Source: a virus. From it: DNA of 24,873 nucleotides. The notes under the pieces were generated by a model. That model ran no database searches, was not told the DNA's origin, and saw only the letters and a list, made by a program, of their open reading frames with translations. Position 1 is the stretch's first letter; the number at the start of each line of letters is the position of its first letter. Positions 771-24,786 of the stretch are shown piece by piece. The translations under genes and the position numbers were made by a program. The stretch lies in UHGV virus genome UHGV-0240820; one strand, given 5' to 3'.

Positions 771-810
771 AGTAGATTATGCATGATGAATTTGATGGGT
801 TTTGAATACT

Positions 811-837
811 GCCGCCAACTATGGCGGCTTTATTTTG
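811..837 (+). terminator. intrinsic terminator-like hairpin upstream of the terminase genes
   Basis: GCCGCCA (811-817), loop ACTA, TGGCGGC (822-828), followed by TTTATTTTG. Confidence 0.55.
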
Positions 838-842
838 CATGG

Positions 843-862
843 TACTATTACCACAACGGTAA
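843..862 (+). promoter_or_regulatory. -10-like TACTAT abutting dyad TTACCACAACGGTAA (848-862); candidate late promoter/operator
   Basis: Same hexamer-plus-dyad arrangement as at 21184-21203 on the minus strand. Lies 18 bp upstream of the terminase small subunit start. No good -35 element. Confidence 0.4.
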
Positions 863-879
863 CTATTACCACGGTGGTT

Positions 880-1476
880 ATGATGCCTGCTGAACCTAAA
901 ACCTATAAACGCAAATCAACGCAATTTAAGCCACTAACAGCAATGCAGGAGGCTTATTGCCAGTCATACATCAAAACGCCTGAAAACCAGACTCAGGCAG
1001 CGATTAACGCAGGATTCTCCCCAAATACAGCGGCAGTTAAAGCCAGTCTCATGATGCGCGATGAACGCATTCAAAAACGGATTGCCGAGCTGATGGAAGA
1101 GCGCAACAAACGAATGCGCGTCAGTGCTGATTACGTTCTCATGCGCCTGGTGGAGATCGACCAGATGGACGTGATCGACATCCTCAACGACGATGGGAGC
1201 CTTAAGCCAATCCGCGAGTGGCCGAAAATCTGGCGCACTACGCTTAGTGGCTTTGATCTGTCATCGACCATCATGAACATGAACGAGGATTCGATAGAGA
1301 CAATCCTCAAAAAAATTAAATGGCCTGACAAGGTGAAGAACCTCGAACTGATTGGTAAGCACGTCGACGTCAACGCATTCAAAGAACGCCTGGATGTTAA
1401 TGTGAATGTGACAATTGCTGATCGCATAGCGGCAGCCAGGAAGAGACTGAAAGAACGTCAGGATGGCAATCAGTGA
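880..1476 (+). CDS. terminase small subunit
   Basis: Position immediately upstream of, and overlapping (GTGA), the large subunit. Sequence resembles small-terminase families (from memory). Start placed at ATG 880 (or 883, GGTGG at 873-877); the ORF-track start at 802 is rejected because it spans the terminator and the direct repeat. Confidence 0.7.
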   Translation: MMPAEPKTYKRKSTQFKPLTAMQEAYCQSYIKTPENQTQAAINAGFSPNTAAVKASLMMRDERIQKRIAELMEERNKRMRVSADYVLMRLVEIDQMDVIDILNDDGSLKPIREWPKIWRTTLSGFDLSSTIMNMNEDSIETILKKIKWPDKVKNLELIGKHVDVNAFKERLDVNVNVTIADRIAAARKRLKERQDGNQ

Positions 1477-2998: not shown

Positions 2999-3025
2999 AG
3001 CCAGCTCATCGGCTGGCTGTTTGTG
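2999..3025 (+). terminator. weak terminator-like hairpin after the terminase large subunit
   Basis: AGCCAGC (2999-3005), loop TCATCG, GCTGGCT (3012-3018), then GTTTGTG. The T tract is poor. Confidence 0.35.
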
Positions 3026-3038: not shown

Positions 3039-3461
3039 TTAGAAGGTTATTTTATCGAATGCGGCGTTGATTGCCTTGGCGTCCTGCTCAGCACCAACCA
3101 CATCAAGTAAAGATCTTTTACTAAGCACTTCAGCCAGGCATTGTAACTTCATGTTGTATAAGTTTTCGCGCATGTAATCATCATCACTTTTTTCTTTGGC
3201 GTATACAGCGCGAGAAATATCAAACACATTGCCTTTTTCCATTTCAGTTTTCTGCGCTGAAATCCAGTCATGGCAAGTAACTCCTATTCCATGGTCATCG
3301 CTAAGCGTTAACCCGGCAAGTCGCTCACCTGGAATTGCTTCACAAAGCATTTCATTTCCTGCAAAAACACCATAAAAAATTGAATCATCACCCTGAACAA
3401 TGCGTACATATTTGCACGGCCATTCATTTAGATATTTAGCTAGCATGTCGGCTGTTTTCAT
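3039..3461 (-). CDS. hypothetical protein (140 aa), reverse-oriented moron
   Basis: Clean ORF with AAGGTGA 4 nt upstream of the ATG on the minus strand. Convergent with the terminase genes. No recognisable motif. Confidence 0.55.
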   Translation of the reverse strand: MKTADMLAKYLNEWPCKYVRIVQGDDSIFYGVFAGNEMLCEAIPGERLAGLTLSDDHGIGVTCHDWISAQKTEMEKGNVFDISRAVYAKEKSDDDYMRENLYNMKLQCLAEVLSKRSLLDVVGAEQDAKAINAAFDKITF

Positions 3462-3471
3462 GATCTCACCT

Positions 3472-3496
3472 TAAAAAAATGCCCGGCGAACCGGGC
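3472..3496 (-). terminator. intrinsic terminator (minus strand)
   Basis: On the minus strand: GCCCGG, loop TTCG, CCGGGC, followed by a T7 run (plus-strand A-run 3473-3479). Confidence 0.7.
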
Positions 3497-3659
3497 GAAC
3501 TGGAAGCAATGAGTTATGCCTTCCGTGGCTGTACTGGTTTACAGCATGAAGCCATCGCAATGGCGCCCTGCTGTAAAAAGGGCGGTGATAGTCCTTCAAG
3601 GGAAACCATCACCGCCAAGCCCCTGGAACTTCTGGCATCACGGTCCTTAGGCGTGATTC

Positions 3660-3736
3660 TGGCGTGGCATGCAGGATTCGAACCTGCGACCAACCGCTTA
3701 GAAGGCGGTTGCTCTGTCCAACTGAGCTAATGCCAC
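3660..3736 (-). tRNA. tRNA-Arg (anticodon UCU)
   Basis: Minus-strand 77-nt cloverleaf: acceptor GTGGCAT/ATGCCAC, D stem GCTC/GAGC, anticodon stem ACCGC/GCGGT with loop CTTCTAA, T arm GCAGG-TTCGAAT-CCTGC, discriminator G, encoded CCA. Differs from host argU at several positions (from memory), so it is phage-encoded. Confidence 0.85.
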
Positions 3737-4058: not shown

Positions 4059-4073
4059 TTACCTGAAAGGTAA
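4059..4073. promoter_or_regulatory. dyad TTACCTGAAAGGTAA (operator-like)
   Basis: One of six TTACC-N5-GGTAA sites; intergenic. Confidence 0.45.
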
Positions 4074-4163
4074 TAATTCGCGCATTAAATGTCAACTGTC
4101 TACGATAAATAAATCATATGTGGTTAAATTGGTAATAATTTAATTGCGTACGGAGTCATTGAT

Positions 4164-20315: not shown

Positions 20316-20828
20316 CTATGCAGGCTTTTTGGATTTGTACGAATAATCCCACGGATAAACATTTCTACTAAGTGGAGCTGTATTCGTTCGTTCATGAAAT
20401 AATTTTGTGAAATTCAATACGGAATCCATCCAAACTTTTGCGTTAGCTTTGGTGTGTGCGGGCGGGTCCCAATAAGCTAGTAAGGCTGCATCTCTTATTT
20501 CATTGACTGCATATATGAGATATGCGTTACTGGTTGGTTTTGGCCTGTAATTTCCTTGTTCATCAATCAATCCATATGACCACTCATCCCAACACTGTTC
20601 AGTACATGAGTATGAATATGATGCATATTCACCAATATTGACATGAACCTTTCTGAGATGGAAGCCTAATACTTCGTCTGGTCTTTCAAAAAGAGTATCT
20701 TTTCCCAGATCAGGATGATGACCATGACGCCAGTGTTGTTTAAAAGCATCTTTTAGCGAAATCAGAAAGTCATCAGTTTTAAACTCACCAGTAGGTATAA
20801 CCTTCCCGCTATACTCACTCAAAAACAT
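20316..20828 (-). CDS. hypothetical protein (170 aa); candidate toxin/effector of a two-gene module
   Basis: Strong RBS (AGAGGA at 5 nt spacing). His cluster (HWRHGHH) and a Cys/Trp-rich segment (YSCTEQCWDEW). Start overlaps the upstream gene's 3' end by 14 nt. AT-rich. Confidence 0.55.
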   Translation of the reverse strand: MFLSEYSGKVIPTGEFKTDDFLISLKDAFKQHWRHGHHPDLGKDTLFERPDEVLGFHLRKVHVNIGEYASYSYSCTEQCWDEWSYGLIDEQGNYRPKPTSNAYLIYAVNEIRDAALLAYWDPPAHTKANAKVWMDSVLNFTKLFHERTNTAPLSRNVYPWDYSYKSKKPA

Positions 20829-21183: not shown

Positions 21184-21226
21184 TTACCTTTAAGGTAATA
21201 GTACGCTATTCACCCCCGGTCTGCAA
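21184..21226 (-). promoter_or_regulatory. candidate sigma70 promoter with overlapping operator dyad
   Basis: Minus strand: -35 TTGCAG (21221-21226), 17-bp spacer, -10 TACTAT (21198-21203), overlapping dyad TTACCTTTAAGGTAA (21184-21198) by 1 bp. Confidence 0.45.
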
Positions 21227-21270: not shown

Positions 21271-21927
21271 TCAGAAGAACCCTGCTTTGTCGTTGATGTA
21301 CTCCGCGTGCGTCTGGATATCACGCAGGCATTTGCTCACACCGACGATGTAGCAGAACATGGTGGTCAGTTCCGCCGCCGCGCCCGATACGTCGTGCCCG
21401 TCTTCCTGTAACTGGTTCAGCAGATTCATCAGCAGTGAGTTCTCCGTCAGGCCGAGAACACCAGACGGAGAATGAATCAGGCTGCGGTAGCCGGGCTTCA
21501 GCGGGGCACTGTATTCTTTTTTGTCTTCCAGCTTGATCGCCTCCATAATGGCGGGCATGAAGCCTGACAAGACCTTCTCCACTTTTGTTTCTTGTTGTCT
21601 TAAACGTTTCTCGCATTCAATGAAGTAGCGTCGCACCTGGCGACCTTTTTCGTTACGCTCGACCATCGCCAGCTCTTTGGCTGTATCAAGGGTGAGGTGG
21701 TACTCTTTGCGGTTGTGGCCGCCTCTACCAGATGTTTGCTTTCCCAAATTGGAAAGCAAAATATAGTCTTGATTTTCAATGAATTCGTATTCTGATATGC
21801 GATTTGTAATCCATGCTGCAAACACCTTTTTAACACCTAAAAAAGCGTGCAGATCGCGGGCATTACAAAGTAGGGCTGTTTCGTTAGATATAGTGCCGTT
21901 GAATACGGGGATGAGTTGAGCGTTCAT
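21271..21927 (-). CDS. phage antirepressor (AntA/Bro-N-type N-terminal domain plus C-terminal domain)
   Basis: N-terminal sequence ([12 protein letters not shown]...[32 protein letters not shown]) matches the conserved AntA-type antirepressor domain as I recall it. GGAG RBS. C-terminal 80 aa are paralogous to ORF 23077-23334. Confidence 0.75.
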
Positions 21928-22085
21928 GATGGCGTCTCCACTTAGCGAATTACATCACCACCGCTGAGACCAATCAGATGGTGGTGAACTGAACGGAGTT
22001 GGTCTTACCGGCCTAAGTGGTACCGGCGTCCTTTCGGACCCCCATTCAGCCCACCATAATTCTGGCATGACTGTGCTATACGCAT

Positions 22086-22108
22086 AAAAAAACCACGTCT
22101 GGCGTGGT
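22086..22108 (-). terminator. intrinsic terminator-like element (minus strand)
   Basis: On the minus strand: stem ACCACG/CGTGGT (22092-22097 / 22103-22108) followed by a T7 run (plus-strand A-run 22086-22092). Confidence 0.5.
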
Positions 22109-22200
22109 ATGCGCCACTTAGTAATCCGGGAGACCAATCCCGGCACTGGATTTTGCCAGTGCCCGATTACTATGGCACAAGAGGAGTGCGATGTAAATTT
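22086..22200 (-). ncRNA. structured non-coding leader or sRNA candidate
   Basis: No ATG on the minus strand across 22086-22200. Hairpins at 22126-22143 (6 bp) and 22142-22163 (8 bp) share two nucleotides. Ends in a terminator-like hairpin. Confidence 0.3.
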
Positions 22201-22213
22201 ACCGCAAAGGTAA
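22199..22213. promoter_or_regulatory. dyad TTACCGCAAAGGTAA (operator-like)
   Basis: On the minus strand a -10-like TATCAT overlaps the dyad by 1 bp, with TTGATT 17 bp upstream as a candidate -35. Confidence 0.45.
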
Positions 22214-22291
22214 TGATAAGCGCGAATAAATATCAAAATCAACCGTATTTGGTTGATGGAGTTTAATGCTTGATCACCTGAAAGCAAGATA

Positions 22292-22306
22292 TTACCTTTA
22301 AGGTAA
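22292..22306. promoter_or_regulatory. dyad TTACCTTTAAGGTAA (operator-like)
   Basis: Identical to the 21184 site; 21 bp upstream of the ATG of the 242-aa gene; preceded on the plus strand by AGATAT. Confidence 0.45.
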
Positions 22307-22326
22307 TGTTATTGTGAGGAAAAGCA

Positions 22327-23410: not shown

Positions 23411-23425
23411 TTACCCGAAAGGTAA
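23411..23425. promoter_or_regulatory. dyad TTACCCGAAAGGTAA (operator-like)
   Basis: Lies between the divergent antirepressor-paralog and tail-spike starts. Confidence 0.45.
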
Positions 23426-23529: not shown

Positions 23530-24786
23530 ATGACGGTCTCAACCGAAGTTGACCACAACGAATACACCGGTAACGGCGTTACGACATCGTTTCCGTATAC
23601 TTTTCGAATTTTCAGAAAATCAGACCTGGTTGTTCAGGTGTCTGATCTGAACGGAAACGTAACAGAATTGGTCCTGGATACCGGTTATACGGTAACTGGG
23701 GCGGGCACTTATAGTGGCGGTTCTGTGGTTCTTCCGTCTCCGCTTGCTACTGGATGGCGAATTACGATAGATCGTGTGCTTGATGTAGTGCAGGACACAG
23801 ACCTTCGCAATCAGGGAAAATTTTTCCCCGAAGTGCATGAAGATGCCTTTGACTACCTGACGATGCTGATCCAGCAATGTTTTGGGTGGTTCAGACGTGC
23901 ATTGATGAAACCATCTTTGCTTGCAAAATATTACGATGCAAAGCAAAACAAAATTTCTAACCTTGCAGATCCATCATTTGAGCAGGACGCTGTAAATAAT
24001 CGCTCAATGCGTAATTATGTCGATGCTGCAATCGCCGGAGTTGTTGGTGGTTTTGGTTGGTTTATTCAGTATGGTTCTGGGGCTGTGTACCGAACGTTCC
24101 AGGATAAAATGCGTGATGCTATTAGCCCCAAAGATTTTGGAGCTGTTGGTGATGGTATAAATGACGATTCCACTGCAATAAGCGCGTGCCTTGAAGCCTC
24201 ATCTCCAGGTTATAAAATTGACGGATTAGGGCTTACTTTTAAAGTATCAACTCTTCCGGATGTCAGTCGATTTAAAAATGCTCGTTTTTTATTTGAGAGA
24301 ATACCGGGCCAGCCTCTTTTTTATGCTTCTGAAGATTTTATCCAGGGAGAGTTATTTAAAATTACAGATACACCGTGGTACAACGCCTGGACGCAGGATA
24401 AAACGTTTGTATATGACAATGTCATCTATGCGCCTTTTATGGCTGGAGACCGCCATGGTGTAAATAACCTCCATGTTGCATGGGTTCGCTCAGGAGATGA
24501 CGGGAAGACCTGGACAACGCCGGAATGGCTTACAGATTTACATGAAAACTATCCCACAGTTAACTATCACTGCATGAGTATGGGGGTTGTCAGAAATCGC
24601 CTTTTTGCTGTAATTGAGACGCGGACCGTGAGAGGAAATAAACTGCAGGTTGCAGAGTTGTGGGATCGCCCAATGAGTCGCAGCCTTCGCGTTTATGGTG
24701 GTATAACGAAAGCAGCAAATCAGCAAGTCGCTTATATTCGCATTACTGATCACGGATTGAACCGCCCCGGGAATCCTGGAGACTAA
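23530..24786 (+). CDS. tail spike/fiber protein, 3'-disrupted by IS insertion
   Basis: GGAG RBS. N-terminal ~140 aa resemble the T7 gp17 particle-binding domain (from memory). DFGAVGDGINDD motif and an Asp-box SGDDGKTW (24491-24514). From ~24758 the reading frame runs into IS terminal sequence; the last ~9 codons and the stop are IS-derived. Confidence 0.7.
   Translation: MTVSTEVDHNEYTGNGVTTSFPYTFRIFRKSDLVVQVSDLNGNVTELVLDTGYTVTGAGTYSGGSVVLPSPLATGWRITIDRVLDVVQDTDLRNQGKFFPEVHEDAFDYLTMLIQQCFGWFRRALMKPSLLAKYYDAKQNKISNLADPSFEQDAVNNRSMRNYVDAAIAGVVGGFGWFIQYGSGAVYRTFQDKMRDAISPKDFGAVGDGINDDSTAISACLEASSPGYKIDGLGLTFKVSTLPDVSRFKNARFLFERIPGQPLFYASEDFIQGELFKITDTPWYNAWTQDKTFVYDNVIYAPFMAGDRHGVNNLHVAWVRSGDDGKTWTTPEWLTDLHENYPTVNYHCMSMGVVRNRLFAVIETRTVRGNKLQVAELWDRPMSRSLRVYGGITKAANQQVAYIRITDHGLNRPGNPGD

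What the first reader, a model, noticed from the sequence alone, without database searches (positions are those of the whole stretch)
3039..3461. Reverse-oriented gene inside the packaging/head module
A 140-aa ORF with a strong RBS is convergent with the terminase large subunit and sits next to the tRNA. Genes in this orientation within a late operon are typically morons that may be expressed from the prophage.
Basis: inference. Interest (0 to 1): 0.45.

Follow-up and report, generated by a model that had tools for sequence, protein, structure and literature searches.

The report
Uncharacterised gene in phage counter-defence slot
The reverse-oriented 140-codon gene is real and conserved, and it sits in a swappable slot of phiV10/epsilon15-like prophages that usually holds known anti-immunity "sponge" genes, so it is a candidate new phage counter-defence protein rather than a typical prophage-expressed moron.

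Summary
The ORF at 3039-3461 (-), 140 aa, is a real gene. It has a Shine-Dalgarno sequence, is under purifying selection (dN/dS about 0.2), and gives a confident two-domain predicted fold. It belongs to phrog_4846 (unknown function). It has no Pfam, NCBIfam, PADLOC or PDB relative.

It occupies a hypervariable slot between terL and portal of Uetakevirus (phiV10/epsilon15-like) prophages, where cargo is swapped exactly from start to stop codon. I sampled 111 related viral contigs anchored on the junction motif. The first gene in the slot is Acb4 (PF13876, anti-CBASS sponge) in 56%, this family in 27%, and Tad2-like (PF11195) in about 3%. I therefore read it as an uncharacterised counter-defence candidate. 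This rests on position only; no function was tested.

The gene has no promoter of its own. A covarying UUCG hairpin plus U7 terminator abuts its SD. Transcription must come from a conserved promoter about 600 nt upstream, through tRNA-Arg and a structured leader of about 200 nt. The -10 of that promoter lies in a palindrome (TTACC-N5-GGTAA) found 7 times in the window and 14 times in phiV10, including the repressor/cro intergenic region. This suggests, but does not prove, that the unit is silent in the lysogen.

The parts
3039..3461 (-). CDS of the 140-aa protein (phrog_4846). N-domain is residues 1-75 (helix, three strands, helix). Residues 76-92 are a disordered linker. Residues 93-137 are a C-terminal helical hairpin, the conserved core of the family.
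3465..3472 (-). Shine-Dalgarno AAGGTGAG, 3 nt before the ATG. Conserved in front of every cargo type.
3473..3496 (-). Intrinsic terminator GCCCGG-UUCG-CCGGGC-A-U7 directly abutting the SD. The stem covaries across relatives: GCCCAC/GTGGGC, GCCCTC/GAGGGC, GCCCGC/GCGGGC.
3497..3659 (-). Structured, conserved leader or tRNA trailer. It has three main hairpins, including a 14-bp stem at 3581-3616 followed by a U-run, plus a short 3-bp one. No Rfam match.
3660..3736 (-). tRNA-Arg (anticodon UCU), same strand and same presumed transcription unit. Present only in the E. coli-type loci.
4067..4095 (-). Candidate sigma-70 promoter TTGACA-17 nt-TACCTT. The hexamers are conserved across genera and the spacer varies in sequence.
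4059..4073 (.). Palindrome TTACCTGAAAGGTAA overlapping the -10 and start site. It is one of 7 copies in the window and is a candidate operator.
2999..3018 (.). Hairpin terminator shared by the convergent terL and ORF140. The better U-run is on the minus strand.

Best explanation
ORF140 is a real accessory cargo gene of a Uetakevirus prophage. It sits in a dedicated, hypervariable expression slot between terL and the portal operon. The slot supplies a fixed promoter with an operator-like palindrome, then (in E. coli phages) tRNA-Arg, then a structured leader of about 200 nt ending in a strong terminator, then the SD and ATG. A fixed terminator lies after the stop codon. Only the coding sequence is exchanged between phages. 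The slot most often carries the immune-signal sponges Acb4 and, rarely, Tad2. I therefore infer that ORF140 is a soluble cytoplasmic counter-defence protein: either a binder or sponge of a host immune signal, or an inhibitor of a defence protein. Its 45-aa helical hairpin would be the conserved functional core and its N-domain an exchangeable accessory module. I also infer that it is made during infection or induction, by read-through or antitermination of the upstream terminators, and not from the repressed prophage. Shown: gene reality, slot variability, the identity of slot-mates, the absence of an own promoter, the terminator, leader and palindrome. Inferred: the function, the expression timing and the read-through mechanism.
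For: Real gene: SD, 111 homologues, dN/dS 0.16-0.26, pLDDT 83. Slot: phiV10 has a PF13876 protein here, TL-2011b has a phrog_3163 protein, PAS61 has the same 140-aa gene, and one E. coli strain has ORF140 plus PF13876 in tandem. Homology with phiV10 breaks exactly at 3041 and 3461, the stop and start codons. In 111 contigs anchored on the junction motif, the first cargo gene is PF13876 in 62, this family in 30, and PF11195 Tad2-like in 3 (E 3e-24), with six other small families. PF13876 is the Acb4 family of anti-CBASS sponges and PF11195 is Tad2 (papers 10.1101/2024.12.30.630793 and 10.1101/2025.07.12.664507). One natural in-frame fusion joins the ORF140 N-domain to a whole Tad2-like domain (L059). 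Fusion to Tad2 or Acb4 is the criterion that uncovered Sequestin. The C-module exists alone as a 61-aa protein in the same slot, sometimes followed by Acb4. Divergent members (38-40% identity) still sit in the same slot behind the same junction. The protein has no signal peptide or TM segment and is acidic, like its slot-mates. Expression: a single promoter-like site lies upstream and is conserved across genera. The terminator hairpin covaries. The palindrome occurs 7 times in the window against 0.46 expected, and 14 times in phiV10 against 0.61 expected, including the repressor/cro region and the antirepressor promoter.
Confidence: 0.45

Rival explanations
1. Classical lysogenic-conversion moron. 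ORF140 is expressed from the resident prophage and benefits the lysogen, for example by superinfection exclusion or defence against other phages.
For: Reverse orientation inside the late region, atypical G+C, patchy distribution and its own downstream terminator. It is carried in 134 of 5426 complete E. coli genomes, including ST131. Prophage tRNA units can be constitutively transcribed (general knowledge, not tested here).
Against: No promoter of its own, and a covarying terminator directly before the SD. The upstream promoter carries the palindrome shared with the immunity and antirepressor promoters. There is no PADLOC hit. The slot-mates are phage counter-defence sponges, not host-benefit genes.
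Confidence: 0.2
2. Phage-internal accessory factor. ORF140 modulates the phage's own packaging or head assembly, or its gene regulation, for example by binding terminase, portal or a regulator. This would explain why the family is locked to this position in one phage lineage.
For: The family is found only in this slot of Uetakevirus-like genomes, even at 38-40% identity. It lies next to terL and portal.
Against: It is absent from most relatives and replaced by unrelated proteins such as Acb4 and Tad2, so it is dispensable for assembly. It is on the opposite strand to the morphogenetic operon. It is acidic and shows no DNA-binding signature.
Confidence: 0.12
3. The real product of the locus is the RNA: tRNA-Arg plus a structured RNA of about 200 nt ending at the UUCG terminator. 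ORFs downstream of the terminator would be poorly expressed passengers.
For: The leader is conserved at 67-85% across genera. On the structure, 97.6% of cells are paired and 16 cells carry compensatory changes, with 0 of 500 shuffles reaching this. The fold z-score is -3.0. Two terminator-like hairpins precede the ORF.
Against: The ORF is under clear purifying selection. The SD is invariant in front of every cargo. Experimentally validated counter-defence families occupy the same position, so cargo here must be translated.
Confidence: 0.1
4. Spurious ORF or decaying pseudogene.
For: Some relatives carry truncated or frameshifted copies (for example L027 at 80 aa and L032 at 127 aa).
Against: dN/dS of 0.16-0.26 at dS up to about 2, an intact 139-144-aa frame in dozens of distinct alleles, a confident fold and a PHROG family match at E 8e-87.
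Confidence: 0.02

Closest known systems
Acb4 (PF13876, Phage_gp49_66) anti-CBASS sponge
   Same: It occupies exactly the same slot, behind the same terminator-SD junction, in 56% of sampled relatives, and sometimes sits in tandem after an ORF140-family gene. Both are small, acidic and cytoplasmic. Acb4's published topology (N-terminal helices, three antiparallel strands, two C-terminal helices) superficially resembles the predicted order of elements in ORF140.
   Different: No sequence relationship: no Pfam hit and hhalign probability 0.06%. No PDB fold match was reported. In ORF140 the strands and the C-terminal hairpin are separated by a disordered linker and occur as separable modules.
Tad2 (PF11195) anti-Thoeris sponge
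   Same: It is an alternative cargo of the same slot. One natural protein fuses the ORF140 N-domain in frame to a Tad2-like domain.
   Different: ORF140 has no PF11195 match. The fusion is rare, seen in 1 of 5426 E. coli genomes.
Sequestin (PF21825; T4 Y16O) anti-Thoeris sponge
   Same: Sequestin proteins are short (60-80 aa), all-helical and mostly stand-alone, sometimes fused to other modules, and associated with Tad2 and Acb4. This matches the 61-aa helical-hairpin core of the ORF140 family.
   Different: No PF21825 hit for 15 C-module sequences, even at E<=10. The family is absent from that paper's supplementary tables. Dimer formation and ligand pockets were not testable here.
Classical morons of lambdoid phages (own promoter + gene + terminator inserted between essential genes)
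   Same: An extra gene between conserved late genes, with atypical G+C, patchy distribution and a downstream terminator.
   Different: No own promoter. The gene is plugged into a shared, conserved promoter-leader-terminator-SD socket and is exchanged codon-precisely.
phrog_4846 (PHROGs v4, unknown function)
   Same: Full-length match, E 7.7e-87, residues 1-140 against profile 1-140.
   Different: Nothing differs. This is its family, and it carries no functional annotation.

Membership tests
phrog_4846 | Significant full-length match to the PHROG profile | tested here: met
   E 7.7e-87, residues 1-140 against profile 1-140 of 140
Moron (Hendrix/Juhala sense) | Gene present in some closely related phages and absent or replaced in others | tested here: met
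Moron (Hendrix/Juhala sense) | Nucleotide composition differs from neighbouring genes | tested here: met
   40-44% G+C against 52-55% in the flanks
Moron (Hendrix/Juhala sense) | Own promoter directly upstream (autonomous transcription unit) | tested here: not met
   No promoter-like site lies between 3462 and 4066. An intrinsic terminator ends 8 nt before the ATG region.
Moron (Hendrix/Juhala sense) | Own terminator downstream | tested here: met
   Hairpin at 2999-3018 with a U-run on the minus strand
Moron (Hendrix/Juhala sense) | Expressed from the repressed prophage | not testable with these tools
   No expression data. The operator-like palindrome over the -10 argues against it.
Acb4 (PF13876) | Match to the Pfam PF13876 profile or homology to family members | tested here: not met
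   No Pfam hit at E<=1. hhalign of A3 against A6 gives probability 0.06%.
Acb4 (PF13876) | Tetrameric pinwheel that binds cyclic di- or trinucleotides | not testable with these tools
   No multimer or ligand modelling was available. No PDB fold hit above generic helical matches.
Tad2 (PF11195) | Match to the Pfam PF11195 profile | tested here: not met
   No hit for ORF140. As a positive control, the slot's 98-aa cargo hits PF11195 at E 3.2e-24.
Sequestin (PF21825) | Match to the Pfam PF21825 profile | tested here: not met
   15 C-module sequences scanned at E<=10 gave no PF21825 hit
Sequestin (PF21825) | Short all-helical protein forming an antiparallel homodimer with two ligand pockets | tested here: inconclusive
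   A 61-aa stand-alone helical hairpin exists. Dimer and pockets could not be modelled.
Viral immune-signal sponges in general (traits listed in 10.1101/2025.07.12.664507) | Co-localisation or fusion with known sponge genes | tested here: met
   Same slot as Acb4 and Tad2, tandem with Acb4 (L003, L006), and fusion with Tad2 (L059)
Viral immune-signal sponges in general (traits listed in 10.1101/2025.07.12.664507) | Homo-oligomer with (often positively charged) pockets at protomer interfaces | not testable with these tools
   Monomer model only. Net charge is -7.3 overall, but slot Acb4 and Tad2 are also acidic.
Known anti-phage defence proteins (PADLOC-DB) | Match to any PADLOC model | tested here: not met
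   0 families at E<=1

The most novel reading that the evidence does not exclude
phrog_4846 proteins are a new, lineage-restricted family of counter-defence proteins, either an immune-signal sponge or a defence-protein inhibitor. A 45-aa helical-hairpin core carries the activity and exchangeable N-domains tune or extend it. They are delivered from a previously undescribed 'expression socket': an operator-controlled promoter, tRNA, a structured leader, a terminator abutting the SD, and cargo ORFs swapped codon-precisely. Cargo output would be gated by terminator read-through or antitermination.
Probability: 0.3. Interest if true: 0.7.

Novelty: new member of a known kind. Interest (0 to 1): 0.5.

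Why it matters
If ORF140 is a counter-defence protein, it adds a family with no detectable relative among known sponges or inhibitors. The family is carried by prophages in about 2.5% of complete E. coli genomes, including ST131. It has a natural minimal 61-aa form that would be easy to test. The slot itself would be a ready-made discovery site. Every ORF found between the invariant terminator-SD junction and the terL terminator of Uetakevirus genomes is a candidate anti-defence gene, and at least seven further unannotated families sit there. The conserved leader, terminators and genome-wide palindrome also offer a way into the essentially unstudied transcriptional programme of epsilon15/phiV10-like phages.

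Tried and rejected
- **Sequence homology:** Pfam, NCBIfam, PADLOC and PDB sequences gave nothing for the single sequence or the profile. A profile search of 1.84 billion representatives found only 29 relatives, all of the same family.
- **First structure model:** built from 31 sequences, it was poor at pLDDT 64. Adding divergent members raised it to 83.
- **Distant Acb4 idea:** the order of secondary-structure elements is similar, but hhalign rejected the relationship.
- **C-module as Sequestin (PF21825):** rejected at the sequence level.
- **Own promoter between terminator and SD, or inside the leader:** none found (plus inspection).
- **tRNA-Arg and ORF as a functional pair:** rejected, because the gene occurs without the tRNA in Citrobacter, Salmonella, Enterobacter and Klebsiella loci, and the tRNA occurs with other cargo.
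- **Rfam:** no family match for the leader.
- **Literature:** no paper mentions phrog_4846. The protein is absent from the supplements of two accessory-gene/sponge screens. The epsilon15 genome paper, which might describe the palindrome, is not held.
- **Genome-contig scan:** added only two Citrobacter loci.

Full report
**1.

The ORF runs 3039..3461 on the minus strand, starts with ATG and encodes 140 aa. On the minus strand the sequence reads GCCCGGTTCGCCGGGC-A-TTTTTTT-AAGGTGAG-ATC-ATG. So a good Shine-Dalgarno (3472-3465) sits 3 nt before the start codon.

terL (1473-2948, +) converges on the ORF. The two genes share a hairpin at 2999-3018. tRNA-Arg(UCU) is at 3660-3736 on the same strand.

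ORF length by itself means little, because antisense ORFs of up to 168 aa occur by chance inside terL. The evidence that this one is a gene is as follows:
- It fills a non-coding gap.
- It has 111 homologues at 38-99% identity in Escherichia, Salmonella, Citrobacter, Klebsiella, Enterobacter and Hafnia.
- Nei-Gojobori dN/dS against 27 distinct orthologous alleles is 0.16-0.26, at dS up to about 2.
- AlphaFold2 with a 38-sequence alignment gives mean pLDDT 83.

**2. Genomic setting**

The window is a Uetakevirus (phiV10/epsilon15-like) prophage of E. coli. The stretch between terL and the small ORF plus portal is a cargo slot:
- Phage PAS61 carries the same 140-aa gene.
- phiV10 carries a 123-aa PF13876 protein.
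- TL-2011b carries a 115-aa phrog_3163 protein.
- E. coli strain UID2309220026 carries ORF140 followed by a PF13876 gene.

Homology between the window and phiV10 stops at 3041 and resumes at 3461. Exactly the coding sequence, from stop to start codon, is replaced.

Among 5426 complete E. coli genomes, 902 have the flanks and 134 have a DNA-level homologue of the ORF.

**3. What else sits in the slot**

I anchored on the invariant junction GGGCATTTTTTTAAGGTGA in IMG/VR. I translated the ORF that follows the junction. Of 111 complete first-cargo ORFs:
- 62 are PF13876.
- 30 belong to the ORF140 family.
- 3 are a 98-aa protein that hits PF11195 'Tad2-like' at E 3.2e-24.
- The rest fall into six small unannotated families.

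A wider tally of whole slots (200-1300 bp) shows the same picture and adds further families and tandem arrangements.

PF13876 is the Acb4 family. Its founding member, from phage SPO1, is a tetrameric sponge for CBASS cyclic nucleotides (paper 10.1101/2024.12.30.630793). PF11195 is the Tad2 anti-Thoeris sponge. Both identifications are also used in paper 10.1101/2025.07.12.664507. The slot is therefore, in most relatives, a counter-defence locus.

**4. The protein**

The model has three parts:
- An N-domain, residues 1-75: helix 3-10, strands 18-23, 29-33 and 36-42, helix 63-75.
- A low-confidence linker, residues 76-92.
- A C-terminal helical hairpin: helices 93-114 and 121-137.

The hairpin is the conserved core. 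Its motif is ENLYxxKLQCL...D...AxAINAAFDKITF, and K105, L109, F135 and D136 are kept even in the most divergent members.

The family is modular:
- The core alone exists as a 61-aa protein in the same slot (E. coli MB31 and LP5-1, Enterobacter phage BUCT554, where Acb4 follows it).
- Enterobacter phage Tyrion gp53 and others join a different N-domain to the same core.
- Variants of 192-204 aa add a C-terminal phrog_16206 module.
- One contig (L059), matching one E. coli genome (PF9285), encodes the ORF140 N-domain (residues 1-72) fused in frame to a complete Tad2-like domain.

The protein is acidic (pI 4.8) and has no hydrophobic segment. The slot's Acb4-like and Tad2-like proteins are acidic too.

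**5. What it is not**

- No Pfam, NCBIfam, PADLOC or PDB-sequence match.
- PHROGs places it in phrog_4846, function unknown.
- A profile search of 1.84 billion representative proteins finds only 29 relatives. Members as low as 38-40% identity still lie in the same terL/portal slot, behind the same junction.
- Profile-profile comparison with the slot's Acb4 proteins is negative, at probability 0.06%.
- The C-module does not hit Sequestin (PF21825), even at E<=10.

So it is not a member of Acb4, Tad2 or Sequestin. The counter-defence reading rests on three things: position, tandem arrangement and fusion with known sponges, and a general likeness to small modular sponge proteins.

**6. How it could be expressed**

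Nothing resembling a promoter lies between the ORF and 4066.

A canonical intrinsic terminator (6-bp G+C stem, UUCG loop, U7; 3496-3473) abuts the SD. This hairpin-U7-AAGGTGA-ATG junction is present in front of every cargo type in about 190 loci. Four compensatory stem variants occur: GCCCGG/CCGGGC, GCCCAC/GTGGGC, GCCCTC/GAGGGC and GCCCGC/GCGGGC.

Upstream lies a conserved leader of about 200 nt:
- Identity is 67-85% across genera.
- It is predicted to form three main hairpins plus a short 3-bp one. One is a 14-bp stem followed by a U-run, and that U-run is itself predicted to pair in the next hairpin.
- 97.6% of cells are paired, and 16 cells carry compensatory changes, with 0 of 500 shuffles reaching this.
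- It has no Rfam match.

In the E. coli-type loci, tRNA-Arg precedes the leader. Other genera lack the tRNA but keep the leader.

The only promoter-like element is TTGACA-17-TACCTT at 4095-4067 (-). Its hexamers are conserved across genera and its spacer sequence varies. ORF140 must therefore be transcribed as the distal part of this unit, by read-through or antitermination of one or two terminators. That step is inferred.

**7. When it could be expressed**

The -10 of that promoter lies inside the palindrome TTACCTGAAAGGTAA (4059-4073). TTACC-N5-GGTAA, allowing one mismatch, occurs as follows:
- **In the window:** 7 times, against 0.46 expected, with 0 of 100 shuffles reaching 7. Sites lie before terS, before an AntA-type antirepressor gene and before neighbouring accessory genes.
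- **In phiV10:** 14 times, against 0.61 expected. Sites include two between the repressor gene p40 and the cro-like p41, two on the other side of the repressor gene, one at the antirepressor promoter and one before int.

The palindrome's position relative to the -35 differs between promoters. That fits a protein-binding operator better than a core promoter element.

If it is the immunity repressor's operator, the slot promoter is off in the lysogen and comes on at infection or induction. That would suit counter-defence cargo and contradicts 'expressed from the prophage'. This is inference for three reasons. The binding protein is not identified. A one-mismatch copy lies near oac. The epsilon15 genome paper that may discuss such repeats could not be read.

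**8. Verdict**

The moron label is half right: this is an accessory, exchangeable gene of foreign composition, but it is not an autonomous unit and is probably not prophage-expressed.

The best-supported reading is an uncharacterised, lineage-restricted counter-defence candidate in an Acb4/Tad2 slot, with confidence about 0.45 for the whole statement. Within that, I put gene reality and slot nature above 0.9, function at about 0.4-0.5, and expression timing at about 0.5.

It is a new member of a known kind: phage anti-defence or accessory cargo in a hotspot. It is moderately interesting and directly testable.

Noticed in passing
window 3462-3659 (-): Conserved, structured RNA of about 200 nt between tRNA-Arg and the cargo ORF, with no Rfam match. 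It has three main hairpins plus a short 3-bp one, 97.6% of cells paired and 16 compensatory cells (0 of 500 shuffles), and fold z = -3.0. The U-run after the 14-bp hairpin (3581-3616) is predicted to pair into the next hairpin, so alternative terminator and antiterminator folds are conceivable. It could be an sRNA, a tRNA trailer or a cis-acting antitermination or attenuation leader.
   Followed up: partly
window 848-862, 866-880, 4059-4073, 21184-21198, 22199-22213, 22292-22306, 23411-23425; L210 (phiV10), 14 sites: Palindrome TTACC-N5-GGTAA is strongly over-represented: 7 against 0.46 expected in the window, and 14 against 0.61 in phiV10. It sits at nearly every intergenic promoter region, including the repressor/cro region of phiV10. 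It is probably the operator of a global phage regulator. The binding protein was not identified.
   Followed up: partly
window 3041/3461 versus L002 (phiV10) 2280/2654: Cargo exchange is codon-precise. Homology with phiV10 ends at the stop codon and resumes at the first base of the start codon. The conserved terminator-SD and the downstream terminator act as the fixed arms of the cassette.
   Followed up: yes
L059:3001-3507 (same as E. coli PF9285, NZ_CP038791.1 1508891-1509397): Natural in-frame fusion of the ORF140 N-domain (residues 1-72) to a complete Tad2-like (PF11195/DUF2829) domain. It is found in 1 of 5426 E. coli genomes. It may be a recombination accident or a working two-module counter-defence protein.
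   Followed up: partly
loci L091-L209 (slot cargos); examples L100, L095, L102, L159, L164, L173, L061:566: At least seven further unannotated small protein families occupy the same slot. They include a 143-147-aa protein with CxxC motifs, an 86-89-aa protein, a 138-aa membrane-anchored protein, proteins of 110, 97 and 140 aa, and a 246-aa coiled-coil protein. All are candidates for counter-defence or conflict functions.
   Followed up: partly
window 21928-22326 (-), upstream of antA (21271-21927): The AntA-type antirepressor gene has the same design as the slot: a palindrome-bearing promoter (22199-22213), a leader of about 270 nt containing a terminator-like hairpin plus U-run (about 22089-22110, minus strand), then the gene. 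This suggests a common read-through or antitermination logic in this phage.
   Followed up: no
window 3479-3730 (+): An 83-aa plus-strand ORF overlapping the tRNA and leader in antisense corresponds to the annotated PhiV10p04 'hypothetical protein'. It is most likely a spurious annotation over RNA-coding sequence.
   Followed up: no
window 802-900 (+): The mechanical terS ORF (TTG at 802) is probably too long. A terminator-like hairpin (GCCGCCAACTATGGCGGC + TTTATTTT, about 808-835) and two palindrome copies precede ATGATG at 880, the likelier terS start. So terS, like the cargo slot, sits just downstream of a terminator.
   Followed up: no
window 23530-24786 (+): The tailspike carries endosialidase domains (PF12217, PF12218, PF12195; E down to 1e-70). 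This Uetakevirus prophage therefore probably targets K1-capsulated E. coli, unlike phiV10, which is O157-specific.
   Followed up: no
loci L009, L031, L054-L058, L060-L090, upstream of the leader: Non-E. coli relatives lack the tRNA-Arg gene (ARAGORN). Some still keep T-arm-like remnants (GCAGGTTCGAATCCTGCATGCC) or a CCGG..CCGGCCACCACA hairpin at the same place. This suggests tRNA loss or replacement with the downstream leader retained.
   Followed up: no
window 20316-20828 (-): A 170-aa ORF gives a weak, sub-threshold hit to the YafO toxin family (PF13957; E 9.5e-4, 19.7 bits against a cutoff of 25). It lies next to a 108-aa ORF whose promoter carries the palindrome, so the pair may be a toxin-antitoxin-like accessory module.
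   Followed up: no
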